Part shown: piece after piece, positions 13,277 through 48,226 of the stretch
Layout of the letters: every line of letters starts with the position of its first letter
Position numbering within the stretch: the stretch's first letter is position 1
Assembly (NCBI GenBank): GCA_965219165.1
Contig: CBDCMW010000002.1
Span: forward strand, 422,706 to 486,705
Direction of reading: 5' to 3'
From: Candidatus Aldehydirespirator sp.
GTDB taxonomy: Bacteria > Actinomycetota > Acidimicrobiia > Acidimicrobiales > Aldehydirespiratoraceae
DNA length: 64,000 nt
Notes under the pieces: generated by a model
What the model was told of the DNA's origin: nothing
Seen by the model: the letters and a program-made list of their open reading frames with translations, nothing else
Databases searched by the model: none
Program-made: the position numbers and the translations under genes

Positions 13277-14455
13277 ATGGAGCGACTGCTGGCCGCACTC
13301 ATGGTGCTTGGCCTCATCGCCGCCGCCTGCAGTGGCGGCGAGCCGGCGGACGGTGGGGGCCCCAGCACGCCCGACGACGGCGCCGCTGGGGATGAGCCCG
13401 CCACCAGCACCGCCCCCGGCAACGCCGAGCCCGCGGCGGACGGTGGGGGCCCCAGCACGCCCGACGACGGCGCCGCCGGGGATGAGCCCGCCACCGCCGT
13501 AGGCGAAGGCGAGCCCGCCGAGGAGATGATGCTCGATGAGCTGAATGTGGCTTACCTCTTGGAGTGGCCGACGGCGAATCAGGCGGCCGGGCTGGAGAAG
13601 ACCTATGACGAGGCTCTGGATCTGACGGTGAACTGGATCCCGTTCGCGTCGGGCGGCGACATGGCCCAGGCGATGGAGTCCGGCGACGTCGACATCTCCT
13701 ATTCGCAGGATCTGACGTCGTTCGCGAGCTTCGTGACCGGCGGCTCCGACTTGCTGCTGGTGGGGGTGGCGGTGAGCTACGCGGATGCCCACAACTGTGT
13801 GGCCCATCCCGACTATGGCGTGAGCGCGGACAGCGCGGCGCAGTCGCTGGCCGGACAGAGCATCTACACGCCTTTGGGCAACGCGACCCACCTCAAGCTG
13901 TTGAAGATGCTCGAGCATCTGGGGGTGGACACCGCCACGGCGAGCCTGATCCGGTCCGAGGGCGGCCCGGCAGCGGTGGTCGCGCTGGACTCGGGCGAGG
14001 TGGCTTTGGCGTGCGCGTTCGGCGACGCGGTGAACCAGATGATTGCCAACGGCGGCAATCTGGTGATGACCGGCGCCGAGCAGGAGGCCATCGGCATCCG
14101 CGTCTTCGACATCATCTCCACCGCTGGAGACTTTGCTGAGGCCTACCCGGACACCGTCACCGGCTTCCTGCAGGTGACCGAGGACGCCAACCGGGCCTAC
14201 AACGACACCCGGGACCCGTTCATTGACACCATCGCCGAGGCCGCGGGCATGGACCGCGAGCCGACCATCGCGCTGCTGGACGCGTTCTCGTTCCCCGAGA
14301 AGGACGTGCAGTTGTCTGAGGCGTGGCTCGGCGGGACCGTCCAGCAGCTTATGAAGGACCAGATGGACTTCTTCGTCGCCCAGGGCGAGATCGCCTCGGC
14401 GCTGGGAAGCTACGACGGCTTCGTCGACACCAACTTCCTCGAAGCCGTCAACTGA
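13277..14455 (+). CDS. Lipoprotein, NMT1/THI5-like (taurine/sulfonate/betaine-type) ABC substrate-binding protein
   Basis: ATG at 13277. Lipobox LIAAAC. Pro/Asp/Gly linker with a duplicated 20-aa segment, then an SBP-like domain. No permease or ATPase gene adjacent. Confidence 0.7.
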   Translation: MERLLAALMVLGLIAAACSGGEPADGGGPSTPDDGAAGDEPATSTAPGNAEPAADGGGPSTPDDGAAGDEPATAVGEGEPAEEMMLDELNVAYLLEWPTANQAAGLEKTYDEALDLTVNWIPFASGGDMAQAMESGDVDISYSQDLTSFASFVTGGSDLLLVGVAVSYADAHNCVAHPDYGVSADSAAQSLAGQSIYTPLGNATHLKLLKMLEHLGVDTATASLIRSEGGPAAVVALDSGEVALACAFGDAVNQMIANGGNLVMTGAEQEAIGIRVFDIISTAGDFAEAYPDTVTGFLQVTEDANRAYNDTRDPFIDTIAEAAGMDREPTIALLDAFSFPEKDVQLSEAWLGGTVQQLMKDQMDFFVAQGEIASALGSYDGFVDTNFLEAVN

Positions 14456-15646: not shown

Positions 15647-16267
15647 GTGACTCTTCGTGACGCTAGGTCGGGCTCGACTCGACGATCGCTGGACAGCGAG
15701 ACCGTGATCTCGGCCGCAGCGCGAATCGCCGACGAGGCGGGACTCGACAAGCTGACCCTGACCCGGGTGGCCGACGCTCTCGGCGTTCGCCAGCCTGCCC
15801 TCTACCGGCATGTGGGCGGCTACGACGACCTCATGCGCAGCTTGAGCCTCCTGGGCCGCGAGATCCTGGCCAAGAAACTCTCCGACTCGGCCGTCGGCCT
15901 AGCCGGCGACGACGCCGTGGCCGCGGTAGGCCACGCCTGGCGGGCCATGGTCCGGGACCATCCCGGCATCTACGCCGCAACTGATCGCTACCCGTGCGCG
16001 GGCGACCCCGAGCTGGAGAGCGCGGTGGAGCAGGTGCTGGCCGTGGTGGGTCAGGCTCTCAGGGCCTACGACCTCTCCGAGGAGGACCGGGTTCACGCCG
16101 CTCGCACCCTGCGCAGCGCCTTCCACGGATTCAGCCATCTGGAGTCGGGCGACGGCCATCCGCTGCCGCATGACCCCGACGACACCTTCACCCATCTCGT
16201 GGAGCTGCTGTGCGTCGGCATCGAACGGCTGGCCCGCACGTCCGGTGCTCGCGGGGCAGCTGCCTAG
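15647..16267 (+). CDS. TetR family transcriptional regulator
   Basis: GTG at 15647, preceded by GGGAGGGA. HTH region LTLTRVADALGVRQPALYRHVGGYDDL. C-terminal WHG-like region (AFHGFSHLE). Confidence 0.8.
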   Translation: MTLRDARSGSTRRSLDSETVISAAARIADEAGLDKLTLTRVADALGVRQPALYRHVGGYDDLMRSLSLLGREILAKKLSDSAVGLAGDDAVAAVGHAWRAMVRDHPGIYAATDRYPCAGDPELESAVEQVLAVVGQALRAYDLSEEDRVHAARTLRSAFHGFSHLESGDGHPLPHDPDDTFTHLVELLCVGIERLARTSGARGAAA

Positions 16268-16310
16268 TGGCTCAGAACAGGTTCCTCCTCGACCGCGGCA
16301 GGGGTGCGGG

Positions 16311-17825
16311 GTGACCCGGCTCGGGTTCCTATTGGACAGCGACAGCTGCATCGGCTGTCACGCCTGCACGGTCGCGTGCAAGAGCGAGCACGACATTCCG
16401 TTGGGCGTCAACCGCACCTGGGTGAAGTACATCGAGACCGGTACGTTCCCCAATGTCAACCGGCACTTCTCGGTGATGCGCTGCAACCACTGCGACGACG
16501 CGCCCTGCATCGCCATCTGCCCCACCAACGCGCTGTTCCGGGCAGCCAACGGCGTGGTGGACTTCGACGACAGCAACTGCATCGGCTGCAAGGGGTGCAT
16601 GAACGCCTGCCCGTACGACGCCATCTACATCAACCCCGTCACCAACACCGCCAACAAGTGCAATTTCTGCAACCACCGCATTGAGCAGGGCCTCGAGCCG
16701 AGTTGCGTGGTGGTGTGCCCCACCCACGCCATCAAGGTCGCCGATCTCGACGACCCGAACGACGAAACCACGAGGATCATCGCTCGTAGCGACACCGCGG
16801 TGCGGTCCCCGGAGCAGCAGACCCTGCCCAAGGTGCACTACCTGGGCGCCGATCAGGCCTCGCTGGACCCGCTGCGCACCGCCATCGCGGCCGACGGCAT
16901 GATCTGGGCCGACACCACGCCGCAGCATCCGACGGCCGAGCCCGACGGCCACGGCGTGGTGGCCCGCACCGCCTACACCACCGCCCATCAGATGACCTGG
17001 AAGGCCAAGGTGTCGAGCTATCTGGTCACTAAGGCGATCGCCGCCGGTGTGATGGCGGTGGCCGCTCTGTTGGCGCTGCTGGGCCACGGCGGCTCGCAGG
17101 CCGCGGTGGGTGTGATGCCGCCGGTGGTTGCGGGGTTCTTCCTCGCGGTAACGGGTGCGCTACTGGTGGGGGACCTGCGCCGCCCGGAGCGCTTCTACTA
17201 CCTGCTCACCCGGAGCAACCGCCGCTCCTGGCTGGTCAAGGGCGCATGGGTGCTCGGCGGATTCGCGGCCGTGTGCGGAGCGTGGTTCGTTGCCGGTGTT
17301 GCGGGCTCGCCGGCGGTGCTGCAGGCGCTGGCTGTGCCCGCGGCGCTGCTGGCTGCGGCCACCGCCGGCTACACGGCCTTCCTGTTCGGTCAGTGCGAGG
17401 GCCGGGACCTGTGGCAGACGCCGCTGCTGCTGCCGACGCTGCTGGCCCAGGCCGCGGTGGCCGGCGGCGCCGCCTATTCGCTGGCGGATCTTGCCATCGA
17501 GATCCCCGAGGCGGCCGCGGTGCGCTGGGTGATGCTGGGCGGAATCCTGGCCAGCGCGGTGCTCATCGCGGCCGAGGTGGCGTTGCGGGGCACCGCCCAT
17601 GTGGAGGCGGCTGTGGCGGCCATGACCCGCGGCCGCTACGCCCGTCGCTTCTGGGCCGGAGGCATGGTGTTGGGCCTGGTCCTGCCTGGAGCCGCCACCG
17701 CCGCCGCCCTCGCGGCCGGCGCCGGCGCTGCGCTGCCCGCCGCCGCGGGGCTGGCCGCGCTGGTGGGCATGTGGTTCTACGAGGACAGCTTCGTTCGGGC
17801 CGGCCAGTCCGTCCCGCTGTCGTAG
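16311..17825 (+). CDS. 4Fe-4S ferredoxin-type subunit fused to a polytopic NrfD/PsrC-like membrane domain (Mo-oxidoreductase electron-transfer/anchor subunit)
   Basis: GTG at 16311. Four Cys clusters (CIGCHACTVAC, CNHCDDAPCIAIC, CIGCKGCMNAC, CNFC...CVVVC), followed by ~300 aa with multiple hydrophobic helices. No twin-arginine signal. Confidence 0.8.
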   Translation: MTRLGFLLDSDSCIGCHACTVACKSEHDIPLGVNRTWVKYIETGTFPNVNRHFSVMRCNHCDDAPCIAICPTNALFRAANGVVDFDDSNCIGCKGCMNACPYDAIYINPVTNTANKCNFCNHRIEQGLEPSCVVVCPTHAIKVADLDDPNDETTRIIARSDTAVRSPEQQTLPKVHYLGADQASLDPLRTAIAADGMIWADTTPQHPTAEPDGHGVVARTAYTTAHQMTWKAKVSSYLVTKAIAAGVMAVAALLALLGHGGSQAAVGVMPPVVAGFFLAVTGALLVGDLRRPERFYYLLTRSNRRSWLVKGAWVLGGFAAVCGAWFVAGVAGSPAVLQALAVPAALLAAATAGYTAFLFGQCEGRDLWQTPLLLPTLLAQAAVAGGAAYSLADLAIEIPEAAAVRWVMLGGILASAVLIAAEVALRGTAHVEAAVAAMTRGRYARRFWAGGMVLGLVLPGAATAAALAAGAGAALPAAAGLAALVGMWFYEDSFVRAGQSVPLS

Positions 17826-20760: not shown

Positions 20761-22062
20761 GTGCTGCTGATGAGCTTCGCCAACCCTACCGAGGGGGTCG
20801 ACACCTCGAACGTCCCCTACGTGGTCGTGTCGAGCGACACGCATGCGGGGCTGCAGTGCGAGGAGTACCGCCCGTACCTCGACTCTGCGCTGCACGACGA
20901 GTTCGACGTCTATGTGGCGGAGCGCCACGAGCACCGGCGGGTGCAGGAGGAGGTCAACGCCGAGTTCCTGGCCGAGTGGGAGGGCGAGAACGCCGAGGGG
21001 CTGCGGGGCGCCTACGACCCTGAGGTGCGCGACAAGGAGCTCGACGCCGACGGCATCGCCGGTGAGGTCATCTTCGCCGACGGCGACGCGGTGACCGGCC
21101 AGGAGTCGCCCCCGTTCGGCGCCGGTCTGTCCGCGGGCCAGATCACCGACGCCCGCCAGGCCTTCGGAGGGGCCCGGGCCCACAACCGCTGGCTGGTGGA
21201 CTTCTGCGCCACCAACCCGCCCCGCCGGGCCGGGGTGGGCCTCGTGCCCATAACTCACGACGTGGCAGAGTCCGTGGCCGAGATCGAGTGGCTGGCCGGC
21301 AAGCCGGGCATCAAGGGGATCATGATCCCCACCATGTGGCACGGATTCCCGGCCTACGGGTCCGACCACTACGACCGGGTGTGGGCCGCCTGCGCCGAGA
21401 CCGGCCTGGTGGTGCACACCCACTCCGGCGAGGCCGATTTCGAGTCCTACGGCGACAACGTGGCCATGTACGTGTCGGAGGTGCCGTTCTGGACCCACCG
21501 GGCGCTGTGGCAGCTGCTGTTCTCGGGCAAGTTCGACCGGTTCGGTGGTTTGCGCTACTCGGTCGTGGAGTGCGGCTCGTTCTGGATCGGCGACATCCTG
21601 TGGAAGGCCGACGTGAACTTCGGGGCCAGCAACAAGGTCAAGAAGCTGGGCTCGCGCATGAAGGGCCTGATCTCGCGGCTGCCGTCGGAGTACTTCGGCA
21701 CCAATGTGTTCATCGGCGCCTCCACGATGAGCAAGGAGGAGATCCGCCGCCGCCACGTCAACGGCATCGACGCGCTGATGTGGGGCACCGACTACCCCCA
21801 CCCCGAAGGCTCGTGGCCCCACACCGCCAAGCGGCTCCAGAGCGACTTCCGCGACGTGTCGATCGAGGACGCCCGCCGCCTGCTCGGATTGAACGCGGTG
21901 GACTGCTACAACCTCGACCTCGACTCCCTCACCGAGATTGCCGACCGCATCGGCCCCACCCCCGAGCAGTTCCACCAGGATCCCGGTCTGCGCACCCCGG
22001 CGGACGCCAAGCGCACCGCCCGCTGGTGGATAGACGAGTACGGCTGCGAGCTCCAGTACTGA
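20761..22062 (+). CDS. Amidohydrolase-2 (ACMSD/decarboxylase-hydratase type) family metal-dependent hydrolase
   Basis: 433 aa. VVSSDTHAG near the N-terminus and WGTDYPHPEGSW near the C-terminus are metal-ligand regions typical of Amidohydro_2. Confidence 0.75.
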   Translation: MLLMSFANPTEGVDTSNVPYVVVSSDTHAGLQCEEYRPYLDSALHDEFDVYVAERHEHRRVQEEVNAEFLAEWEGENAEGLRGAYDPEVRDKELDADGIAGEVIFADGDAVTGQESPPFGAGLSAGQITDARQAFGGARAHNRWLVDFCATNPPRRAGVGLVPITHDVAESVAEIEWLAGKPGIKGIMIPTMWHGFPAYGSDHYDRVWAACAETGLVVHTHSGEADFESYGDNVAMYVSEVPFWTHRALWQLLFSGKFDRFGGLRYSVVECGSFWIGDILWKADVNFGASNKVKKLGSRMKGLISRLPSEYFGTNVFIGASTMSKEEIRRRHVNGIDALMWGTDYPHPEGSWPHTAKRLQSDFRDVSIEDARRLLGLNAVDCYNLDLDSLTEIADRIGPTPEQFHQDPGLRTPADAKRTARWWIDEYGCELQY

Positions 22063-22076
22063 GTCCGGATTTGGTT

Positions 22077-22502
22077 GTGAGCGCTGGGGGCTATGAGCCG
22101 AGCCCGTGGAAGCCGATAGCCGACCACGTCGATCGCTATCTGGCCACCGATGGCGCCGACGGCTTCGAGTGGGAGGGGGCCCAGTGCGTGATCCTCACCT
22201 CCGTCGGGCGGAAGACGGGCAGCCTGCGCCGCACGCCGCTCATCCGCATCCGTGACGGCGAGCGCTATCTGCTGGTGGCGTCGATGGGTGGTGCGCCCCG
22301 CCATCCGAACTGGTACCTGAACCTGGTCGTCAACGCCGAGGTGACCATCCAGGATCGGGGCGAGCAGCACCGGCTGCGGGCCCGCACGGCCACACCGGAG
22401 GAGAAGGCCGAACTCTGGCCCCTCGCGGTGAGCCACTGGCCCGACTACGAGGACTACCAGGCCCGCACCGACCGCGACCTTCCCCTCGTCATCTGCGAAT
22501 AG
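22077..22502 (+). CDS. Deazaflavin(F420)-dependent nitroreductase family protein (DUF385)
   Basis: GTG 22077 (or TTG 22071) within track ORF 21288..22502. Pattern LTSVGRKTGSLRRTPL...LLVASMGGAPRHPNWYLNL...V.IQ typical of DUF385/Ddn-like proteins. Confidence 0.75.
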   Translation: MSAGGYEPSPWKPIADHVDRYLATDGADGFEWEGAQCVILTSVGRKTGSLRRTPLIRIRDGERYLLVASMGGAPRHPNWYLNLVVNAEVTIQDRGEQHRLRARTATPEEKAELWPLAVSHWPDYEDYQARTDRDLPLVICE

Positions 22503-22505
22503 CGG

Positions 22506-23402
22506 TCAGCCGGAGGCGGCTGCGGCGTAGAGTTCGGCCACCACTTCCAGGGCTTGGGCCACCAGCGGCAGGGGTTCCCCGGTCCGGGTGAGCAGCAGCA
22601 GCGGCACCGAGGCGGAGCGATCACCGATGTCCGCGTAGTGCAACTCGGGCGGCCGGAAGGTCTGCACGCTGGCCGGCACGATGGCGATCCCCTCGCCTGC
22701 GGCCACGAACCCGAGGATCGTCGTGTACTCGGTGGCTTCGATGACCGGGTCGTAGGGCACGCCCTCGGCGCCGAGCATTCCCGCGAGCACGGCGTGCAGG
22801 CTGGGTGACACTCTCCGGTCGAATCCGATCATCGTCTCGCCGGAGAGGTCGCGCAGGCTCGTTGTCGATGCCGCCGCCAACCGGTGGGACGCGCCCGCGG
22901 CCACCAGCAGACGCTCATGGGTCACCAGAGTCGCCTCCACGTGCTGCGGGTCGGCCGCGGCCCGGCCGATGCCCAGGTCGATCCGGCCCTCCCGCAGGGC
23001 CCGCACCTGCTCGTCGGAACTCATCGTGTGCAGCTCGTAGTCCACCCGGGGCCAGCGCCGCCGGTACTCGCTGAGCGCCCGGGGCATCACCTCGTAGGCG
23101 GCCGAGTCCACGAACCCCACCCGGAGCGTGCCTGCATGGCCGTGGTGGTGCTGGTCCATGAGCCGGTCGACTCCGTCGGCCGAGGCCAGCAGGCGCACCG
23201 CCTCGGGGTATAGGAACGCGCCTGCGTCGGTGAGGCTCACTCGTCGGGTGCTGCGGTCGAACAGGGCCGTGTCGAGCTCGCGCTCCAGCAGCCGGATCTG
23301 CTGGCTCAGCGGTGGCTGGGACATATGGAGCCGCTGGGCGGCACGACCGAAGTGCAGCTCCTCGGCCACGGCCACGAAGTAGCGCAAGCGCTGCAGGTTC
23401 AC
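22506..23402 (-). CDS. LysR family transcriptional regulator, divergent from soxB
   Basis: 298 aa. N-terminal HTH MNLQRLRYFVAVAEELHFGRAAQRLHMSQPPLSQQIRLLE plus a LysR substrate-binding domain. Confidence 0.9.
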   Translation of the reverse strand: MNLQRLRYFVAVAEELHFGRAAQRLHMSQPPLSQQIRLLERELDTALFDRSTRRVSLTDAGAFLYPEAVRLLASADGVDRLMDQHHHGHAGTLRVGFVDSAAYEVMPRALSEYRRRWPRVDYELHTMSSDEQVRALREGRIDLGIGRAAADPQHVEATLVTHERLLVAAGASHRLAAASTTSLRDLSGETMIGFDRRVSPSLHAVLAGMLGAEGVPYDPVIEATEYTTILGFVAAGEGIAIVPASVQTFRPPELHYADIGDRSASVPLLLLTRTGEPLPLVAQALEVVAELYAAAASG

Positions 23403-23485
23403 CCCACAATCATATGCATCAACTCTGAATCAATCGCATATTGATACTTCACTTCACCGATAGGGATGCCTACCCTGTCACGGCG
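23403..23485. promoter_or_regulatory. Divergent LysR/soxB control region (AT-rich)
   Basis: The only AT-rich stretch locally (caatcatatgcatcaactctgaatcaatcgcatattgatacttcac), lying between divergent genes. Contains CATCAA...TTGATA half-sites. No promoter elements verified. Confidence 0.35.
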
Positions 23486-24793
23486 ATGACAGGACTCGCC
23501 CGAATCCGGCGCCGCCCGCCCAAGTATTCTGCGGCAGCATTGGCCTGGAAGGGCCTGCGAGGCGGCAGTTGGCCCCGGGTCTGGCGCGAGCCCGAGTTGA
23601 AGCGCTCCTATGACGCTGTGGTGGTCGGCGGGGGCGTGCACGGCCTGGCCACCGCCTACTATCTCGCCCGCAACCACGGCATCACCAACGTGGCCGTGCT
23701 GGACAAGGCCTATCTGGGCAGCGGCGCCTCGGGCCGCAACACCGCCATCGTGCGGTCCAACTACCTCACTCCCGCCGGCGTGGCCTTCTATGACCGGTCG
23801 CTGCAGCTCTACAACTCCATGGCGCTGGACCTGAACATCAATGTGATGTTCAGCGAGCGCGGCCACCTGACCCTGGCCCACACCGACGGCGCTCTGCGCA
23901 CCATGAACTGGCGGGCCGAGGTCAACAAGCTCCAGGGCGTCGACTCCAGCGTGATCGGCCCCGACGAGATCAAGAAGATCGCTCCCAGCCTCGACACCTC
24001 CGACCATCCCCGTTACCCGATCCTGGGCGCGCTCCACCACCCGCCCGGCGGGGTCGTCCGCCACGACGCGGTGGTGTGGGGATATGCCCGGGCCGCCGAC
24101 TGCATGGGCGTCGAGATGCACCAGAAGACCGAGGTCCTCGACATCCTCTGCGAGGGCGGCGAGGGCCCCGACGGCAAGGGACCTGGGGGCAAGGTCACCG
24201 GAGTGCGCACAAACCGGGGCGACATCTCCACTCCGGTCGTGGTGAACTGCACAGCCGGCTGGGCCTGTCTCATCTCGGCCATGGCCGGCGTGCGACTGCC
24301 CATCACGACCCATCCCTTGCAGGCCGCGGTCACCGAGCCGGTCAAAGTGTTCCTGCCCACGGTGGTGGTGTCGGGCTCCTTGCACGTCTACATCAGCCAG
24401 ACCGACAGGGGAGAGCTCGTCTTCGGCGCCGCCGTCGATCCGGTGGCCACCTACTCGATCCGGGGCTCGCTGGAGTTCACTGAGGAGTTGGCCGGCCATG
24501 TGCTCGAGCTCATGCCGGGCATCTCCCGGATGAGGCTGCTGCGCCAGTGGTCCGGCCTGTGCGACATGACCCCCGACTACTCGCCGGTGATGGGATTCAC
24601 CCCGGTGGACGGCTTCCTGGTGGACGTGGGCTGGGGCACCTACGGGTTCAAGGCCGCCCCGGTCTCCGGCGAGCAGATGGCCGAGGCGGTCGCCACCGGC
24701 CGGACCCCCGAACTGATCGAGCCCTTCGCTCTCAGCCGCTTCGACACGGGCGAGCTGGTGGGTGAGAAGGGCGCCGCGGCGGTGGGGCACTGA
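23486..24793 (+). CDS. soxB: Heterotetrameric sarcosine oxidase beta subunit (or N-methylglutamate dehydrogenase homologue)
   Basis: ATG 23486. FAD fold YDAVVVGGGVHGLATAYYLA, GSGASGRNTAIVRSNY (covalent-FMN His region). ~435 aa, followed by delta, alpha and gamma genes. Confidence 0.88.
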   Translation: MTGLARIRRRPPKYSAAALAWKGLRGGSWPRVWREPELKRSYDAVVVGGGVHGLATAYYLARNHGITNVAVLDKAYLGSGASGRNTAIVRSNYLTPAGVAFYDRSLQLYNSMALDLNINVMFSERGHLTLAHTDGALRTMNWRAEVNKLQGVDSSVIGPDEIKKIAPSLDTSDHPRYPILGALHHPPGGVVRHDAVVWGYARAADCMGVEMHQKTEVLDILCEGGEGPDGKGPGGKVTGVRTNRGDISTPVVVNCTAGWACLISAMAGVRLPITTHPLQAAVTEPVKVFLPTVVVSGSLHVYISQTDRGELVFGAAVDPVATYSIRGSLEFTEELAGHVLELMPGISRMRLLRQWSGLCDMTPDYSPVMGFTPVDGFLVDVGWGTYGFKAAPVSGEQMAEAVATGRTPELIEPFALSRFDTGELVGEKGAAAVGH

Positions 24794-24867
24794 TGCTGCC
24801 TCTCACTGCTCGCGGCACCGCTCGCCGGCAGCGGCTCGCGGCGCGCCCACACGGAGTCGACGGCTGA
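24793..24867 (+). other. 74-bp junction unit with 24-codon relay mini-ORF between soxB and soxD
   Basis: ATG 24793-24795 shares a base with the soxB TGA (24791-24793). Its own TGA (24865-24867) shares a base with the soxD ATG (24867-24869). Both junctions read CTGATGCTGC. Confidence 0.6.
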
Positions 24868-25139
24868 TGCTGCTGGTTCCCTGTCCCAACTGCGGGCCGC
24901 GCAACTCTGCCGACCTGCGGTACGGCGGCGAGTCTCATGCTCGCCCCGACCCCGCCACTGCTTCCCCCCTGCAGTGGCGGGGCTATCTCTACCTGCGCGA
25001 CAACCCGGCCGGATGGCTGCGGGAGACCTGGTACTGCCGGTCGGGCTGCCGCCGCTGGTTCACCCTCGAGCGCAACACGGCCACCAACGAGTTCCGACAC
25101 CCGCCGGCGCCCGGCGACAAGCGAGGCGGCAAGGCATGA
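24867..25139 (+). CDS. soxD: Sarcosine oxidase delta subunit
   Basis: ATG 24867. 90 aa. Zn-type Cys pattern CPNCG...C..GC and WRGYLYLRDNPAG typical of SoxD. Confidence 0.85.
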   Translation: MLLVPCPNCGPRNSADLRYGGESHARPDPATASPLQWRGYLYLRDNPAGWLRETWYCRSGCRRWFTLERNTATNEFRHPPAPGDKRGGKA

Positions 25140-25351
25140 CCGGCCTGTCCCTTCCACCGGAGGCGTCGGCATGACCGGCCCGTCCCTTCCACCGGAGGCG
25201 TCGGCATGACCGGCCCGTCCCTTCCACCGGAGGCGTCGGCATGACCGGCCCGTCCCTTCCACCGGAGGCGTCGGCATGACCGGCCCGTCCCTTCCACCGG
25301 AGGCGTCGGCATGACCGGCCCGTCCCTTCCACCGGAGGCGTCGGCATGACC
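25136..25351 (+). repeat. Tandem array, 6 x 35 bp (atgaccggcccgtcccttccaccggaggcgtcggc) plus partial 7th unit = soxA start
   Basis: ATGs at 25136, 25171, 25206, 25241, 25276 and 25311, then the soxA ATG at 25346. Units 2-6 are identical; unit 1 has one C->T change. Each unit carries GGAGG 7 nt before the next ATG. Confidence 0.97.
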
Positions 25352-28195
25352 ATGAGCCGCCTGGGCGCGCGGCCCACCGAGGTGATCGACCGGTCCGCCA
25401 AGCTGCGGTTCCGCTGGAACGGCAAGCGCTTCAGTGGCTTCGAGGGCGACACCATCGCCTCGGCGCTGGCCGCCGCCGGGGAGCACGTGTTCTCGCGCTC
25501 CATGAAGTACCACCGGCCCCGCGGCATCCTCACCGCCGACTACTGGGATCCCAACCTGCTAGTGCAGGTGGGCGACGATCCCAACGTGCGGGCCGGGCAC
25601 CGCCTGCTGGAGTCGGGCATGGACGTGCGGGCCCAGAACGTGTGGCCGTCGCTGCGCCACGACATCAAGGCGGCCAACGGCCTGGTCGGGCGTTTCCTGA
25701 CGGCCGGCTTCTACTACAAGACGTTCATGCGCCCGCAGCGGCTGTGGCCCGCCTACGAGCGGGTGCTGGCCACGTTCGCGCCGGGCGGCAAGATCGACCT
25801 GGACACGCCCCACCGCTATCACGACAAGCGCTACACCCATCCCGACGTCGTGGTGGCCGGCGCCGGGCCGGCCGGGATCGAGGCGGCTCTGGCCGCGGCC
25901 TCCGCCGGTGCCCGGGTGATGCTGGTGGAGCACCAGCACGCAGTGGGCGGCCATCTGCGCTACTGCAGCAGCGAATCGGCCCGCGCCGCGCTGGCCGAGC
26001 TGCGAGCCGCACTCGACGCCTCCGACGTGGAGGTTCTCACCGACTCAACCGTCACGGGCCGGTACGAGGACAACTGGCTCGGGATCGTGCAGCGCAACCA
26101 CCCCGTAGCGGTAGAGCGCCTCATCAAGGCTCGGGCCAAGGTGCTGGTGGCTGCGCCGGGCCTGATCGAGAGACCCTACGTGTTCTCGGGCAACGACCGG
26201 CCCGGAGTGATCACCTCGGGCGCGGCCCGTCGCTTGATCAACCTGTGGGGGGTCAAGCCGGGCGAGCGGGCGGTGGTGTTCACGGCCAACTCCGAGGGCG
26301 ACGCCGCCGCCGCCGACCTCGACCGGGTCGGGGTGGAGATCGCCGCGGTGATCGACGGCCGCGAGGGCCGGCGCATCAGCGCGGCCCAGGGCGCGTCGAG
26401 GGCGGTGGAGGCCGTGGTCGCGGGCGAGACCCGCATCGAGGCCGACCTGCTCGTCGTGGCCGCCGGCTGGACCGCTCCCACCTCGCTGCTCAACATGGCC
26501 GGTGACCGGCCCGTCTACGACGCCGAGGTTGCCCGGTTCTTCCCGTCGGATCCACCCGGCAACGTGCTGCCCACCGGCGGGCTGGCCGGGGACGGCAAGC
26601 TCGACGACCTGCGGGCCCACGGCGCCGCCACCGGACTCCTGGCCGCGCGGCGGGCCGCGGCGGTGGCCCACCGACTCCAGGCCCGCACCGCTCGGGCCCT
26701 CCCAGTCGACGGTGACGAGCCGGCCTGGGCGCCCGATGAGCGGACTTCGCTGGACCGCGACGCCCATCCCGAGCTCTACCGCTCGGACACGCACGGCATG
26801 GTCGACTTCTCCGAGGACGTCGGCTCCAAGGATCTGGTCGCCGCGGCCCGGGAGGGCTACGACTCGGTGGAGCTGGCCAAGCGCTACACCACCGCCACCA
26901 TGGGACCCTCGCAGGGCAAGCTCGAGACGGTCAACACCGTTGCCGCCATCGCCGAGGCCCGGGGCGAGACCATCGCCCAGGTGGGCACAACGGTGTGGCG
27001 GCCCCCGTACGCGCCGCTCACGCTGGGCGCGCTGGCCGGGCGGGTGTTCGAGCCGGTGCGGGTGTCGTCGATCCATCCTTGGCACGAGGCCAACGGCGTT
27101 CGCACCATCCTCGCCGGCCAGTGGATCCGCCCCGACCACTACGGCGACCCCGCCGCGGAGGTGCGCAACGTGCGCACCAACGTCGGCCTGATCGACGTCA
27201 CGCCGCTGGGCAAGCTGGACTTGCGCGGCCCCGACATCCCGAAGCTGCTCAACCTGCTCTACACCAACAAGTGGTCGAAGCTGCCGGTGGGCAAGGTGCG
27301 CTACGGGATGATGTGCGCCGAGGACGGCGTGGTGTTCGACGACGGCGTGACCGGCCGCCTCGACACCGACCACTACCTGATGACCACGACCAGTTCGGGC
27401 GCGGGCGGCGTGTGGGAGTGGATCGAGAACTGGCTGCAGACCGAGCGCCCCGACTGGAGGGTGCACGTCACCCCGGTCACCACCGCCTATGCCAGCATCA
27501 ACGTGGCCGGACCCAAGTCCCGGGAGCTGGTGAGCAGGGTGACCGAGGGTGTGGACCTGTCGCCGGAGGCCTTCGCCTACATGGAGGTCCGCACGGCGAC
27601 GGTGGCTGGCGTGCCGGACTGCTTCATGTGGCGAATCGGCTTCACCGGCGAGCTGTCCTTCGAGCTGCACGTCCCCGCGGGCCACGGCCTGCATGTGTGG
27701 GAGGCGCTCATGGACGCGGGCGCCGATCTCGGTGCCGGTCCGTTCGGTCTGGAGGGCCAGCGCATCATGCGCCTCGAGAAGGGCCATTTCATCGTGGGTC
27801 AGGACACCGACGGCCTCACCCTGGCTCCGAGCACGGGCTTGGGCCCGCTGATCAAGCTCGACAAGGACGACTTCGCGGGCATGCCCGAGCTGGCCTGGGC
27901 CATCGACCGCCAACTGCCCATGATCGTGGCCATCCAGCCCGACGATCCCAACGTGGTCCCCGACGAGGCCGCCCAGATCGTGCGGGGCGACACCAACGAG
28001 ATACTGGGCCGGATCACCTCGGCCCGCATGTCTCCCACGCTGGGACGGTCGATCTGTCTGGGCCAGGTGGAGCCCGACCTGGCTGGGGGCGGCACCAAGC
28101 TGACGGTGCTGTTGACCTCCGGTGAGCGCATCAGCGCCACCGTGATGGACCACCACGCCCATTTCGATCCCGAGGGGGAGCGTCTCCGTGGCTGA
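25346..28195 (+). CDS. soxA: Sarcosine oxidase alpha subunit (FAD/NAD-binding plus GcvT-like folate domain)
   Basis: 949 aa. DVVVAGAGPAGIEAALAAA dinucleotide fold. C-terminal aminomethyltransferase-like domain (GKLDLRGPD..., ELSFELHVPA). Confidence 0.9.
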   Translation: MTMSRLGARPTEVIDRSAKLRFRWNGKRFSGFEGDTIASALAAAGEHVFSRSMKYHRPRGILTADYWDPNLLVQVGDDPNVRAGHRLLESGMDVRAQNVWPSLRHDIKAANGLVGRFLTAGFYYKTFMRPQRLWPAYERVLATFAPGGKIDLDTPHRYHDKRYTHPDVVVAGAGPAGIEAALAAASAGARVMLVEHQHAVGGHLRYCSSESARAALAELRAALDASDVEVLTDSTVTGRYEDNWLGIVQRNHPVAVERLIKARAKVLVAAPGLIERPYVFSGNDRPGVITSGAARRLINLWGVKPGERAVVFTANSEGDAAAADLDRVGVEIAAVIDGREGRRISAAQGASRAVEAVVAGETRIEADLLVVAAGWTAPTSLLNMAGDRPVYDAEVARFFPSDPPGNVLPTGGLAGDGKLDDLRAHGAATGLLAARRAAAVAHRLQARTARALPVDGDEPAWAPDERTSLDRDAHPELYRSDTHGMVDFSEDVGSKDLVAAAREGYDSVELAKRYTTATMGPSQGKLETVNTVAAIAEARGETIAQVGTTVWRPPYAPLTLGALAGRVFEPVRVSSIHPWHEANGVRTILAGQWIRPDHYGDPAAEVRNVRTNVGLIDVTPLGKLDLRGPDIPKLLNLLYTNKWSKLPVGKVRYGMMCAEDGVVFDDGVTGRLDTDHYLMTTTSSGAGGVWEWIENWLQTERPDWRVHVTPVTTAYASINVAGPKSRELVSRVTEGVDLSPEAFAYMEVRTATVAGVPDCFMWRIGFTGELSFELHVPAGHGLHVWEALMDAGADLGAGPFGLEGQRIMRLEKGHFIVGQDTDGLTLAPSTGLGPLIKLDKDDFAGMPELAWAIDRQLPMIVAIQPDDPNVVPDEAAQIVRGDTNEILGRITSARMSPTLGRSICLGQVEPDLAGGGTKLTVLLTSGERISATVMDHHAHFDPEGERLRG

Positions 28196-28769
28196 TCAGC
28201 TCGCCTTCGAGAGTCCGGTGGTGAGCCGTTACTCGACGGCCTCCTCCGGTCATCTGATGCTGGTCGACTCCAGCGCCACAGTGAAGTGGCTGGTGCGGGC
28301 CGCGGCCGGCGGCGCCGCGTCTGAGCGGCTCGATGCGCCGTTCGGCTCGTCGCGGGTCACCCCGGACGGGGCGATGGTGCTGGGCTCCAGGCCCGGGGAG
28401 TGGATCGTTGCCGGCGCCGCGGGCGCGGTGGCCGAGGTTGTGGCGAGCCTTGACGGACTGGATTCCTCGGACTTCGTGACTGCTCTCGACTGGACCCATG
28501 GCCGGGCCCTGTTCCGGATCACCGGCCAGGATGCGCCCCGGATGCTGGAGAAGGTGTGCAGCCTCGACTGGATCGATCCGATGACGCCAGACGGCGCGGT
28601 CGCCTCCGCGTCGGTGGCCAAGGTCACTTGCGACATCTCTCGCAACGATGTCGACGGCACGCCGTCCTACTTGATCTTCTGCGACCGCTCCTTCGGCCAG
28701 TACCTCTTCGATGCCCTCATCGACGCCGGCGACGAGTTCGGCCTGTCCGTCGGCCCGGCCAGCGCGTAG
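28188..28769 (+). CDS. soxG: Sarcosine oxidase gamma subunit
   Basis: 193 aa. GTG 28188 overlaps the soxA end by 8 nt. Size and position fit SoxG. Sequence-level recognition is weaker than for the other subunits. Confidence 0.75.
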   Translation: MADQLAFESPVVSRYSTASSGHLMLVDSSATVKWLVRAAAGGAASERLDAPFGSSRVTPDGAMVLGSRPGEWIVAGAAGAVAEVVASLDGLDSSDFVTALDWTHGRALFRITGQDAPRMLEKVCSLDWIDPMTPDGAVASASVAKVTCDISRNDVDGTPSYLIFCDRSFGQYLFDALIDAGDEFGLSVGPASA

Positions 28770-46445: not shown

Positions 46446-47237
46446 CTACCCAGCGCCGTCGGGCGCCAGCCACGACCGGGCGTGGCGGACCAGTGCGGCG
46501 ACGACTCCGTCGATGGTGTGCTCGGCGGCCTCCACCGTGACTTCCAGGCCGTGCTCGGCCGCGGTGGCCGACGTGGCCGGGCCGATGGACGCCACCAGGG
46601 GCGGGACCGCTTCGGCGCCGAGTTCGGCCACCAGGCGCTTGACCGTCGACGACGACGTGAACACCACACCGTCGGAGGCGGCCGCCGCCCGGCGCTGGTC
46701 GTCGCTGAGCCGGGCGGCCACGTTGCGGTAGGCGGCCACGTCCAACACCTCCCATCCCGCGGCCCGCAGGCTGTCGGGGAGCACGGGGCGGGCCACCGCG
46801 GCCCGGGCCAGCACCACGAGGCTGCCGCGTTGCGGATCGGGGGACGGGAACGCCTGCACCAGGCCCTCGGCAATCGACCGGTCGGGCATCAGGCGCACGG
46901 TCAGTCCCACTCCCGCGGCCCGGTCCGCGGTCCCCGGTCCGATGGCGGCCACGTTCACTCCGTCGGGCAGCGGTCCGACGGCCGCGGCCCGCTCCGCGCC
47001 GTTGGGGCTGGTGACCACTAGCCAGTCTCCCCGGCTGAGCCGGGCCAGCGCGGCCCGCAGCGCGGCACCGCCGTCCGCGGGGTCCGTGATGGCGATCACC
47101 GGGGCGCTGACCACCTCGGCGCCGACCGCGGCCAGACCGTCGGCCAACGTCTGAGCCTGCTCGCGGGGCCGGCACACCACGATCCTGAGCCCGGCCAGCG
47201 GCTTGGGCGCATGGGGCCGGGGCCGCCGCGGGCTCAT
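46446..47237 (-). CDS. hemD: Uroporphyrinogen-III synthase
   Basis: 263 aa. HEM4-like two-lobe pattern (LAGLRIVVCRP..., WLVVTSPNGA, VVFTSSSTV). Sits between hemC and hemB. Confidence 0.8.
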   Translation of the reverse strand: MSPRRPRPHAPKPLAGLRIVVCRPREQAQTLADGLAAVGAEVVSAPVIAITDPADGGAALRAALARLSRGDWLVVTSPNGAERAAAVGPLPDGVNVAAIGPGTADRAAGVGLTVRLMPDRSIAEGLVQAFPSPDPQRGSLVVLARAAVARPVLPDSLRAAGWEVLDVAAYRNVAARLSDDQRRAAAASDGVVFTSSSTVKRLVAELGAEAVPPLVASIGPATSATAAEHGLEVTVEAAEHTIDGVVAALVRHARSWLAPDGAG

Positions 47238-47330
47238 CGGGCGGTCCCCAGTCGTCGCGGGCTCATCGGGCGGTCCCCAGTCGTCGCGGGCTCATCGGGC
47301 GGATCCCAGTCGTCGCTGGTTCATCGGGCG
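47229..47330 (-). repeat. Tandem array, 3 x 29 bp, between the hemC stop and the hemD start
   Basis: Minus-strand ATGA at 47324, 47295 and 47266, then at 47237 (hemD ATG), with exact 29-bp spacing. Units encode MNQRRLGSAR / MSPRRLGTAR x2. Confidence 0.95.
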
Positions 47331-48226
47331 GATCCCAGCAGCGCCCGGCCGCCGCAGTCGTCCAGCAGGTGCCGGGCCACGGCGCGGCCCAGGGTCTCGG
47401 GGTCGCGGCCGCGGCGGGTGTCACGGATCAGCACCCCGCCATCGAGCGACGCCAGCAGGCCCGTCAGCTCCAGGGCGTCGCCGGAGCCGGTGGTGGCGTG
47501 AGCGCCCGCGGGCAGGCTGCAATCGCCGCCCAGCTCGGCCAGGAAGGCCCTCTCCGCGTCGACGGCCCGCCGGCTCGGCTGATGCTCTATGGCGATCAGC
47601 GTCTCGAGCACTGCCCGATTGTCGGCTCGGCATTCCAGCGCGATGGCTCCTTGCCCGACCTGGGGCACGAAGACGTCCGGCTCGAGTACGTCGAGCACCT
47701 CCGGCGCGAGTCCCAACCGGTGCAGAGCCACCGCGGCCATGACGATGGCGTCGAAGGCGGCTGCCCGCTCCAGCCGGGTGGCGATGTTGCCCCGCAACTC
47801 CGCGAAGGCCAGGTCAGGCCGCAGCCAGGCGAGCTGGGCCTTGCGTCTCGCCGAGCCGGTGGCCACCGTCGCGCCGGGCGGCAGCTCGTCGAGCGCTGCG
47901 CCCACCAGCGCGTCTCGGGGATCGCCGCGCCTCGGCACTGCCGCCAGCACCAGGCCCTCGGGCGTCGACGACGGCAGGTCCTTGGCCGAGTGCACCGCGA
48001 TGTCGGCCCGGCCGTCGAGCACCGCGGCCTGCACCTCCTTCACGAACACGCCCTTGCCGCCCATCTCCGCGATGGGCGTGTCGGCTCGGCGGTCCCCCGC
48101 GGTGGACACCACGACCGGCTCCGTCGCAACCCCGCAAGCCTCGGCCAACAGCCCGGCCACGATGCCGGTCTGACAGCGGGCCAGAGCACTGCCCCGGGTC
48201 GCGGCCCGCAGCACCACAGCGGTCAC
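47321..48226 (-). CDS. hemC: Hydroxymethylbilane synthase (porphobilinogen deaminase)
   Basis: 301 aa. ATRGSALARCQT, DIAVHSAKDLP, LRGNIATRL and the cofactor Cys region GGDCSLPAGA. Confidence 0.92.
   Translation of the reverse strand: MTAVVLRAATRGSALARCQTGIVAGLLAEACGVATEPVVVSTAGDRRADTPIAEMGGKGVFVKEVQAAVLDGRADIAVHSAKDLPSSTPEGLVLAAVPRRGDPRDALVGAALDELPPGATVATGSARRKAQLAWLRPDLAFAELRGNIATRLERAAAFDAIVMAAVALHRLGLAPEVLDVLEPDVFVPQVGQGAIALECRADNRAVLETLIAIEHQPSRRAVDAERAFLAELGGDCSLPAGAHATTGSGDALELTGLLASLDGGVLIRDTRRGRDPETLGRAVARHLLDDCGGRALLGSAR

What the first reader, a model, noticed from the sequence alone, without database searches (positions are those of the whole stretch)
25136..25351. Six-unit 35-bp tandem array between soxD and soxA forming a chain of overlapping relay mini-ORFs
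The unit atgaccggcccgtcccttccaccggaggcgtcggc repeats six times. Five copies are identical; unit 1 has one C->T change. The length, 35 bp, is not a multiple of 3.

Each unit starts with ATGA. Its ATG opens a 12-codon ORF (MTGPSLPPEASA) whose TGA lies inside the ATGA of the next unit. Each unit also carries GGAGG 7 nt upstream of the next ATG. The soxD TGA (25137-25139) overlaps the first ATG, and the last mini-ORF's TGA (25347-25349) overlaps the soxA ATG (25346).

The native ATGA coupling junction has thus been expanded into a termination-reinitiation relay that stays intact at any copy number. This is the architecture described for mycobacterial MIRUs (for example in the senX3-regX3 spacer), but with a much shorter unit. 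Near-perfect identity implies recent expansion, so it is a likely VNTR. Copy number might tune the soxD:soxA translation ratio.
Basis: partly seen in the sequence, partly recalled or inferred. Interest (0 to 1): 0.75.

Follow-up and report, generated by a model that had tools for sequence, protein, structure and literature searches.

The report
Variable repeat bridging two coupled genes
A 35-base unit is repeated six times between two sarcosine-oxidase subunit genes of an uncultured soil-type actinobacterium, its copy number differs between natural strains (0, 1, 2, 3 or 6), and every copy rebuilds the stop/start overlap that normally links the two genes, much like the MIRU repeats of mycobacteria but made locally.

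Summary
Six 35-bp units lie at 25136-25345 between soxD and soxA. Each carries ATGA, a 12-codon ORF ending in the next ATGA, and GGAGG 7 nt before the next ATG.

It is a true VNTR. Ten long-read metagenome contigs with an identical SoxD carry 1, 2, 3 or 6 units, and a 97%-identical relative carries none. In 69 of 78 more distant relatives soxD and soxA overlap directly, so the array is an expansion of an ancestral ATGA junction.

The unit occurs at one locus only in the 4.57-Mb Candidatus Aldehydirespirator genome. It is therefore not a dispersed MIRU-type element.

The same architecture recurs independently:
- other spacers at this junction in relatives (35, 59, 65, 68 nt, all 2 mod 3);
- a 74-nt bridging ORF at soxB-soxD in this window;
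- a second VNTR of 29-nt units between hemC and hemD (47238-47324, minus strand).

A control shows that in-phase microhomology in this codon-biased genome alone favours unit lengths of 2 mod 3. Compensating indels in the 35-nt spacers hint at selection on top of that.

Translation of the relay, and any tuning role, remain inferred. Verdict: new variant of a known kind.

The parts
23486..24793 (+). soxB-like gene (beta subunit, FAD oxidase)
   Evidence: TIGR01373 E 2.4e-145, Pfam DAO. The gene call of 435 aa on the source contig maps to these coordinates.
24793..24867 (+). 74-nt insert at the soxB-soxD junction. It holds one 24-codon bridging ORF (MLPLTARGTARRQRLAARPHGVDG). Its ATG shares one base with the soxB TGA, and its TGA shares one base with the soxD ATG.
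   Evidence: Absent in L008, L014, L016 and L018, where the junction is TGATG. Chain traced. 74 = 2 mod 3.
24790..24799 (+). Direct repeat CTGATGCTGC, left copy, flanking the 74-nt insert
   Evidence: the repeat finder family D7, 100% identical, spacing 74
24864..24873 (+). Direct repeat CTGATGCTGC, right copy (soxD start)
24867..25139 (+). soxD-like gene (delta subunit, 90 aa)
   Evidence: TIGR01374 and PF04267. The 90-aa product is on record on 20 contigs.
25136..25345 (+). Six tandem 35-bp units. Each is ATGA + 12-codon ORF + GGAGG 7 nt before the next ATG.
25133..25141 (+). Left copy of the 9-nt junction repeat GGCATGACC (soxD end / first ATGA)
   Evidence: Sequence. TRF array limits 25133-25351.
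25343..25351 (+). Right copy of GGCATGACC (partial 7th unit, which is the soxA start ATGACC)
25334..25338 (+). Last GGAGG, 7 nt before the soxA ATG. This is soxA's own Shine-Dalgarno context, and it is the same at every copy number.
   Evidence: All alleles keep it.
25346..28195 (+). soxA-like gene (alpha subunit, 949 aa). A second in-frame ATG at 25352 corresponds to the MSRL start of distant relatives.
   Evidence: TIGR01372 E 3.3e-255. Exact product on record. Relatives.
28188..28769 (+). soxG-like gene (gamma subunit). Its GTG overlaps the soxA stop by 8 nt (GTGGCTGA).
47238..47324 (-). Second array of the same kind: three 29-nt units between hemC and hemD. Each has ATGA and a 10-codon ORF (MNQRRLGSAR, MSPRRLGTAR x2). 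Each unit is the first 14 nt of hemD plus the last 15 nt of hemC.
   Evidence: TRF 47227-47336, period 29, 3.8 copies. Chain traced. Sequence. Related strains carry 1 or 2 units.
47321..48226 (-). hemC (hydroxymethylbilane synthase)
   Evidence: TIGR00212 E 3.2e-86, above the cut-off
46446..47237 (-). hemD (uroporphyrinogen-III synthase)
   Evidence: NF004587 E 2.7e-29

Best explanation
The array is a locus-specific minisatellite (VNTR). It arose by duplication of the soxD/soxA stop-start overlap and expands and contracts by slippage or unequal recombination between its units.

Each 35-nt unit carries three things:
- the upstream stop and downstream start fused as ATGA;
- a stop-free stretch;
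- soxA's ribosome-binding context (GGAGG, 7 nt, ATG).

Because 35 = 2 mod 3, every ATG opens a 12-codon ORF that ends exactly in the next ATGA. Any copy number therefore gives an unbroken chain of -4 overlaps from soxD to soxA. The last unit always presents soxA with the same Shine-Dalgarno/ATG context.

Inferred consequence:
- Ribosomes can either be handed from ORF to ORF (termination-reinitiation) or load at any unit.
- The region stays translated and soxA expression is little disturbed.
- That tolerance is why copy-number alleles from 0 to 6 coexist as near-neutral polymorphism.
- The peptides themselves have no function.

Shown here: the repeat, its polymorphism, its ancestral state, its confinement to one locus, and the recurrence of the architecture.
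Inferred only: translation of the mini-ORFs and near-neutrality.
For: Anatomy.

Polymorphism:
- Ten contigs with identical SoxD, from four long-read-style assemblies, carry different copy numbers: 1 unit (L008), 2 units (L002, L003, L004, L006, L009, L010, L011), 3 units (L007) and 6 units (L005, which is the window).
- Each allele sits on its own SNP background. soxA DNA is 98.4-99.4% identical to the window.

Ancestral state:
- L016 and L022 carry zero units.
- 69 of 78 more distant loci have a direct overlap.

Local, not dispersed:
- The unit core occurs at one locus only among 185,579 species genomes. That locus is the sox locus of OZ244832.1, Candidatus Aldehydirespirator sp., 4.57 Mb.
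- No further copy exists in the window.

Junction-duplication origin is explicit in sister cases:
- The hemC-hemD unit is hemD's 5' 14 nt plus hemC's 3' 15 nt.
- The 65-nt soxD-soxA unit of L021/L014 ends in a copy of the soxD 3' end.
- The L017 soxB-soxD insert begins like soxD (MLVSVHPVCGRR against MLLVPCPNCGPR).

Architecture is kept everywhere:
- All soxD-soxA spacers are 35, 59, 59, 65 or 68 nt (2 mod 3) with an intact bridging ORF, or 45 nt in frame.
- The 35-nt spacers of the window, L015 and L017 are homologous but differ by compensating indels that restore 35 nt (p 0.0025 and 0.03).

Peptide not conserved: MTGPSLPPEASA, MTAPAASTGGRA, MSRTQASRERPP and MSRAQTARERSL.

Other elements excluded:
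- No terminator or promoter in the array.
- No excess RNA structure, z 0.03.
- No Rfam family.
- No Pfam domain in the antisense ORFs.

Background: NTGA overlaps are the commonest coupling architecture, and MIRU ORFs are thought to exploit it (PMC12548453).
Against: - There are no expression data of any kind. Ribosome hand-over along six ORFs is inferred from sequence.
- The 26-nt interior of the 35-nt unit shows no significant similarity to the soxD 3' end or the soxA 5' end (p 0.4-0.7). A duplication origin for this particular unit therefore rests on analogy and on the shared 9-nt junction repeat.
- The 2-mod-3 rule need not reflect selection. In this genome, 5-9-mers match 2.9-7.2 times more often between positions in the same codon phase. 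Across an ATGA or TGATG junction, the same phase means a distance of 2 mod 3.
- The 6-copy allele is seen on a single contig of 8x coverage.
- If reinitiation efficiency per step is well below 1, six steps would not be neutral.
Confidence: 0.7

Rival explanations
1. Adaptive rheostat. Copy number is a heritable, reversible knob (a contingency locus) that sets the SoxA:SoxD ratio or overall operon output. Each relay step either loses ribosomes, or each extra GGAGG-ATG loads more of them.
For: - Copy number mutates much faster than point substitutions within one population.
- Each unit carries a near-ideal Shine-Dalgarno motif and spacing.
- Two operons for multi-subunit or pathway enzymes in one 64-kb window carry such arrays.
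Against: - A 1:1:1:1 heterotetramer gives no obvious benefit to a variable ratio (established knowledge of heterotetrameric sarcosine oxidase).
- The 2-copy allele dominates, in 7 of 10 contigs. Alleles of 2 and 6 copies coexist in one sample, and so do alleles of 1 and 2 and of 2 and 3, as expected for drift.
- The hem units lack a good Shine-Dalgarno motif.
- There are no expression data.
Confidence: 0.15
2. Untranslated passenger repeat. The mini-ORFs are not used. soxA is initiated de novo at the last GGAGG-ATG, and the array is simply a tolerated spacer whose ORF-like look is a by-product of duplicating an ATGA junction.
For: - The last unit always recreates the same Shine-Dalgarno/ATG context.
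- Mutational bias alone predicts 2-mod-3 unit lengths.
- The peptide sequence is unconstrained.
- GC3 of the mini-ORF is 75%, counted from the unit sequence, against about 90% in the sox genes.
Against: - Identical GGAGG-7 nt-ATG sites cannot easily be ignored by ribosomes at units 1-6 and used only at the seventh.
- Homologous 35-nt spacers keep their length through compensating indels.
- The bridging frame stays open in all diverged versions.
Confidence: 0.2
3. Mobile MIRU-like element. A dispersed short element inserted at the soxA start codon and then amplified.
For: - The architecture is the same as MIRUs: ORFs overlapping the flanking stop and start, tandem copies, and VNTR behaviour (PMC3184786, PMC12548453).
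- The interior of the unit cannot be traced to the flanks.
Against: - The unit core is found at a single locus in the 4.57-Mb genome and in no other of 185,579 species genomes.
- No other copy exists in 64 kb.
- The three junction inserts of the window share no sequence.
- Sister units are plainly chimeras of their own flanks.
Confidence: 0.03
4. Assembly artefact. The six copies are a mis-assembly or a polishing error.
For: The six-copy allele is seen on only one contig, at 8x coverage.
Against: - The 210-bp array is far shorter than long reads. The contig names look like metaMDBG output, which is my own knowledge and was not verified.
- Alleles of 1, 2 and 3 units occur on other contigs at 9-49x, each with its own flanking SNPs.
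- A public chromosome record, OZ244832.1, carries 2 units.
- The analogous hem array also varies, with 1, 2 or 3 units.
Confidence: 0.02

Closest known systems
MIRU-VNTR loci of the Mycobacterium tuberculosis complex (Supply et al. 1997, as summarised in PMC3184786 and PMC12548453; senX3-regX3 spacer, PMC4213456)
   Same: - Tandem units lie between co-transcribed genes.
- Each unit holds a short ORF whose ends overlap the stop of the upstream ORF and the start of the next at -4 spacing.
- Copy number varies between strains.
- The presumed effect is that insertion leaves downstream translation intact.
   Different: - MIRUs are 40-100 bp and belong to one sequence family dispersed at about 40-50 loci. 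They are thought to be mobile, with tetranucleotide target repeats.
- Here the unit is 35 bp (29 bp at the hem locus) and each locus has its own unrelated unit.
- The sox unit occurs once in the genome.
- Sister units are chimeras of the flanking gene ends, which indicates in-situ duplication.
- The host is an acidimicrobial lineage, not Mycobacterium.
Ordinary bacterial minisatellites / VNTRs generated by slipped-strand mispairing or unequal recombination
   Same: - Head-to-tail near-identical units.
- Rapid gain and loss of copies within a species.
- Homogenised unit variants within an array (L003 and L004 carry the same two substitutions in both units).
   Different: Most described VNTRs are either in-frame coding repeats or lie in promoters and untranslated spacers. 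This one sits exactly on a stop-start overlap and recreates it in each unit.
Translational coupling through NTGA (-4) overlaps, and synthetic 'bicistronic design' leader ORFs (PMC12548453)
   Same: A short ORF that ends in the start codon of the gene of interest can deliver ribosomes to that start or keep it unfolded. soxB/D/A/G are ancestrally linked by -1, -4 and -8 overlaps.
   Different: Here up to six such ORFs are chained in series, and the number is polymorphic. Function is inferred, not measured.
Phase-variable contingency loci (simple-sequence repeats that switch genes on and off)
   Same: Hypermutable repeat number at a site that matters for expression.
   Different: Contingency repeats act by shifting frame or promoter spacing, so alleles differ qualitatively. 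Here every allele keeps the same reading-frame logic, so at most a graded effect is expected.

Membership tests
MIRU (mycobacterial interspersed repetitive units) | Unit length about 40-100 bp | tested here: not met
   The unit is 35 bp and the hem unit is 29 bp. The range is taken from PMC3184786.
MIRU (mycobacterial interspersed repetitive units) | One sequence family dispersed at tens of loci in the genome | tested here: not met
   The core pattern is found at one locus only in the 4.57-Mb genome OZ244832.1. No other copy exists in the window. The search needed an exact 21-base core, so copies more than about 10% diverged would be missed.
MIRU (mycobacterial interspersed repetitive units) | Intergenic position inside operons, with unit ORFs overlapping the flanking stop and start codons | tested here: met
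MIRU (mycobacterial interspersed repetitive units) | Sequence similarity to the MIRU consensus; occurrence in Mycobacterium | not tested
The host is Candidatus Aldehydirespirator, class Acidimicrobiia.
VNTR / minisatellite | Head-to-tail tandem units of 10-100 bp | tested here: met
   TRF period 35, 6.3 copies, 99% matches
VNTR / minisatellite | Copy number differs between closely related genomes | tested here: met
   0, 1, 2, 3 and 6 copies
Translationally coupled gene pair (termination-reinitiation at NTGA) | Stop of the upstream ORF overlaps the start of the downstream ORF (-4 or -1) | tested here: met
   All seven junctions of the chain are ATGA. The ancestral junction is ATGA in 64 and -1 in 5 of 78 loci.
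Translationally coupled gene pair (termination-reinitiation at NTGA) | Downstream translation depends on translation of the upstream ORF | not testable with these tools
   Needs reporters or ribosome profiling.
Heterotetrameric sarcosine oxidase operon (soxBDAG) | Four genes in the order beta, delta, alpha, gamma with the family domains | tested here: met
   TIGR01373/4/2/5 and Pfam hits in that order. All scores are below NCBIfam's curated cut-offs, so the assignment is to family. The substrate was not established.

The most novel reading that the evidence does not exclude
In this acidimicrobial lineage, and perhaps in high-GC bacteria generally, stop-start overlaps may be hotspots for a distinct class of locus-specific 'junction minisatellites'.
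- Units would be born by in-phase microhomology across the overlap.
- They would be kept at 2 mod 3 by selection for ribosome hand-over.
- Copy number would act as a reversible rheostat of subunit or pathway stoichiometry.
- MIRUs would then be a special, mobilised offshoot of the same process.
Probability: 0.12. Interest if true: 0.75.

Novelty: new variant of a known kind. Interest (0 to 1): 0.55.

Why it matters
How translational coupling works is still unsettled: reinitiation by the same ribosome, or unfolding of the downstream start (PMC12548453).

A natural allelic series with 0, 1, 2, 3 and 6 identical -4 hand-over steps between the same two genes is a ready-made test set. Output as a function of step number gives the per-step efficiency directly.

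The comparison across relatives also shows how gene junctions evolve:
- Overlaps are repeatedly duplicated.
- The products that persist keep the reading-frame logic.
- A simple mutational cause, codon-phased microhomology, explains much of that bias.

This offers a local-origin route to MIRU-like architecture outside mycobacteria. For genome annotation, such arrays explain odd long 'intergenic' gaps inside tight operons. They also explain spurious N-terminal extensions, such as the 117-aa SoxD call P0005.

Tried and rejected
- Exact-product look-ups for the window's HemC (with GTG read as V and as M), HemD and HemB found nothing. The hem comparison had to go through 90-93% identical HemD relatives.
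- One translation was made in the wrong frame and discarded.
- Unit interior against flanks: there is no significant similarity for the 26-nt core of the 35-nt unit or for the 64-nt core of the 74-nt insert. A duplication origin for these two is therefore not demonstrated.
- RNA structure of the array is no more stable than shuffles (z 0.03). The idea of a structured element or attenuator was dropped.
- No terminator-like or promoter-like site lies in or next to the array.
- Rfam gave one sub-threshold chance hit inside soxD.
- The antisense ORFs and the overlapping plus-strand ORF across the array have no Pfam match.
- Broad literature searches for a general 'junction duplication' phenomenon found nothing relevant.
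- My first crude gene finder missed soxD because of its borderline GC3-GC2 contrast.
- The phase statistic was considered as proof of selection: 5 of 6 soxD-soxA spacer lengths are 2 mod 3, which gives p about 0.02 under equal phases. It was rejected because the microhomology control gives an expected 0.6-0.78 for that phase.

Full report
**1. The observation**

The region 25133-25351 is the strongest tandem repeat in the window: period 35, 6.3 copies, 99% matches, score 431. The 35-mer occurs six times with at most one mismatch and nowhere else in 64 kb. Shuffled sequence gives none. A short-word BLAST finds only chance matches of 13 nt or less elsewhere.

- Units start at 25136, 25171, 25206, 25241, 25276 and 25311. 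Units 2-6 are identical. Unit 1 has T for C at its 11th base.
- Each ATG opens a 12-codon ORF that stops at the TGA inside the next ATGA.
- GGAGG lies 7 nt before each following ATG, including the soxA ATG at 25346.
- The soxD TGA (25137-25139) overlaps the first ATG.
- The flanking genes are a soxB-soxD-soxA-soxG cluster by NCBIfam and Pfam. All scores fall below NCBIfam's curated cut-offs, so the assignment is to family only.

The one detail missed is that the unit-1 peptide has Leu for Pro.

**2. It is a real, polymorphic locus**

The window comes from an ENA metagenome assembly (ERZ25067264, contig ctg830574_8x_l). Locus L005 is identical to window 21867-28139.

Looking up the exact 90-aa SoxD returned ten contigs from four assemblies, with coverages of 2x to 49x. 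Their soxA DNA is 98.4-99.4% identical to the window. They carry these copy numbers:

| Units | Contigs |
|---|---|
| 1 | L008 |
| 2 | L002, L003, L004, L006, L009, L010, L011 |
| 3 | L007 |
| 6 | L005 (the window) |

- Alleles sit on different SNP backgrounds.
- Unit variants are homogenised within arrays. L003, L004, L009 and L011 carry the same two substitutions in both units.
- A 2-unit allele is present in a public chromosome record.
- The array is 210 bp, well inside a long read. The contig names look like metaMDBG output, but that is my own knowledge and was not verified.

An assembly artefact is therefore very unlikely. The 6-copy allele itself does rest on one 8x contig.

**3. The organism, and whether the unit is dispersed**

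A scan of one genome from each of 185,579 species used the conserved core of the unit (21 specified bases, allowing the variants seen). It hit a single stretch: the sox locus of OZ244832.1, a 4.57-Mb chromosome of Candidatus Aldehydirespirator sp. (Acidimicrobiia), with two units.

The unit is therefore not a dispersed family at this level of similarity. This is the main difference from MIRUs.

**4. The ancestral state**

- A relative with 97% identical SoxD (L016) has no unit. Its soxD TGA overlaps the soxA ATG directly (GGCAAGGCATGACCATGAGC). The same holds for L022 in a sister lineage.
- Among 78 further metagenome loci with both genes, 69 have a direct overlap (64 at -4, 5 at -1). Seven have a chain of one bridging ORF. 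One has an in-frame extension. One has no start at the stop.
- soxB-soxD is ancestrally TGATG, and soxA-soxG overlaps by 8 nt.

**5. The architecture recurs independently**

At soxD-soxA, other lineages carry spacers of different sequence. All open at the ATG that overlaps the soxD stop, and all close in the ATGA or GTGA of soxA:

| Spacer | Loci | Bridging ORF |
|---|---|---|
| 35 nt | L015, L017, L018 | MTAPAASTGGRA, MSRTQASRERPP, MSRAQTARERSL |
| 65 nt | L022 (0 copies), L021 (1), L014 (2 identical) | 22 codons per unit |
| 68 nt | L019/L020 | 25 codons |
| 59 nt | L029, L052 | 20 codons |

The 65-nt series is a second VNTR.

At soxB-soxD:
- The window itself has a 74-nt insert flanked by a perfect 10-nt direct repeat. 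It forms one 24-codon bridging ORF (24793-24867) and is absent in L008, L014, L016 and L018.
- Relatives have 68-, 71- and 14-nt versions.

Elsewhere in the window, a second array lies between hemC and hemD on the minus strand:
- It has three 29-nt units (47238-47324), each with ATGA and a 10-codon ORF.
- Related strains have one unit (L097-L100) or two (L101). In L101 a 30-nt first unit merges two ORFs into one that still ends in the hemD ATGA.

**6. Origin**

- The hem unit is plainly the first 14 nt of hemD joined to the last 15 nt of hemC. In each strain it tracks that strain's own hemC end.
- The 65-nt sox unit ends in a copy of the soxD 3' end.
- The L017 soxB-soxD insert begins like soxD.

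These are duplications spanning the junction.

For the window's 35-nt unit only the 9-nt junction repeat GGCATGACC is shared with the flanks. Its 26-nt core has no significant similarity to them. It is, however, homologous to the L015 spacer (p 0.0025), which is in turn homologous to the L017 spacer (p 0.03). The spacer is therefore old and fast-evolving:
- Spacer identity between the window and L017 is 0.42, against 0.73-0.80 at third codon positions.
- Between L017 and L018 the figures are 0.77 against 0.89.

The recent event is the expansion from one to several copies.

**7. Why unit lengths are 2 mod 3**

A bridging ORF from one ATGA (or TGATG) to the next needs a unit length of 2 mod 3. 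The lengths seen are:
- 35, 59, 59, 65 and 68 at soxD-soxA;
- 74, 68, 71 and 14 at soxB-soxD;
- 29 at hemC-hemD.

The only other class is in-frame: 45 nt in L053, and 2 x 39 nt in L015, which gives an N-terminally extended SoxD (P0005).

Under equal phases this would be significant. A control changes the reading. In the coding DNA of this window, 5- to 9-mers match 2.9 to 7.2 times more often between positions of the same codon phase. Across an ATGA or TGATG junction the same phase means a distance of 2 mod 3. Microhomology-mediated duplication across the junction is therefore expected to give relay-phase units 60-78% of the time without any selection.

The evidence for selection is the compensating indels. 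These keep homologous spacers at exactly 35 nt despite near-saturated substitution. The bridging frame is also open in every diverged version, but stop codons are rare in DNA this G+C-rich, so that adds little. This evidence is suggestive, not conclusive.

**8. What it is not**

- There is no terminator-like or promoter-like site in or beside the array.
- The RNA is no more structured than shuffles.
- No Rfam family matches.
- The ORFs on the other strand or in other frames have no Pfam match.
- The mini-ORF peptides are not conserved between lineages, so a functional peptide is unlikely.

**9. Mechanism, with shown and inferred steps**

Shown:
- a locus-specific VNTR on an ancestral stop-start overlap;
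- every allele keeps an unbroken series of -4 overlaps;
- every allele keeps the same GGAGG-7 nt-ATG context for soxA.

Inferred from established knowledge of NTGA coupling (PMC12548453):
- Ribosomes finishing soxD can reinitiate on the first mini-ORF and be passed on.
- Each unit can also recruit ribosomes through its own Shine-Dalgarno motif.
- The spacer thus stays translated and soxA is served at any copy number.
- That tolerance is why the polymorphism persists.

Whether output changes with copy number is open. I give the adaptive-rheostat reading about 0.15.

**10. Comparison with known systems**

The closest known system is the MIRU-VNTR loci of mycobacteria. They share the position inside operons, the unit ORFs overlapping flanking stop and start, and the copy-number variation (PMC3184786, PMC12548453, PMC4213456).

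Two defining features fail here: dispersal as one family and unit size. The host is unrelated. It works like a MIRU array but is not a member of that family.

It meets both defining features of a VNTR. I file it as a new variant of a known kind. Its interest lies in three things: the natural 0-6 allelic series, the recurrence at three junctions in one window, and the codon-phase explanation for the architecture.

Noticed in passing
window 47238-47324 (minus strand), between hemC 47321-48226 and hemD 46446-47237: A second tandem array of the same architecture. It has three 29-nt units, each with ATGA and a 10-codon ORF, and each is a chimera of the hemD start and the hemC end. Related strains carry 1 or 2 units.
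   Followed up: yes
window 24793-24867: A 74-nt insert at the soxB-soxD junction, flanked by a perfect 10-nt direct repeat (CTGATGCTGC). It forms a single 24-codon ORF that bridges the soxB stop and the soxD start. It is absent in some strains with identical SoxD (L008).
   Followed up: yes
window 16265-16313: A possible further single bridging ORF. The TAG of an upstream ORF overlaps a GTG (TAGTG). Fifteen codons follow (VAQNRFLLDRGRGAG), then a TGA overlapping the GTG of a 504-aa ORF. The spacer is 44 nt (2 mod 3). The flanking genes were not identified, and this may be chance.
   Followed up: no
L031 1390-1460 (marine metagenome relative): Two identical 32-nt units (TGACATGCAAACGCCTTCGGCGATTGCACTC) lie directly after the soxB stop. 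Each holds a 9-codon ORF (MQTPSAIAL) ending at the next unit's TGA. An ordinary spacer follows before soxD.
   Followed up: partly
L015 3001-3080: Two 39-nt units at the soxB-soxD junction lie in frame with soxD, so the gene caller reports a 117-aa SoxD with a repeated N-terminal extension (P0005). The contig also shows likely frameshift errors in soxD and soxA.
   Followed up: partly
L014 1770-1899; L021; L022: A sister lineage, including a TARA sample, has its own soxD-soxA VNTR. The unit is 65 nt and the copy numbers are 0, 1 and 2. The 3' third of the unit is a diverged copy of the soxD 3' end.
   Followed up: yes
window 25346-25357 and relatives: soxA begins ATGACCATGAGC. Distant relatives start at the equivalent of the second ATG (MSRL...). 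The first six bases look like an older in-frame 6-nt duplication of the junction, shared by the lineages of L016 and L022.
   Followed up: partly
window 46446-47237 compared with 24867-25139: The exact SoxD sequence is on record on 20 contigs. The best database match to the window's HemD is only 93% identical, and exact HemB, HemC and HemD products are not on record. Strain divergence therefore seems uneven along the contig, or gene starts are called differently.
   Followed up: no
window 9017-9070, 38602-38656, 41253-41298, 43903-43948: Short arrays of period 18 (2.6-3.1 copies). They are probably in-frame hexapeptide-type coding repeats and were not examined.
   Followed up: no
window 13334-13495: A degenerate 42-bp repeat (about 3 copies, 61-64% matches, with indels). 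Not examined.
   Followed up: no
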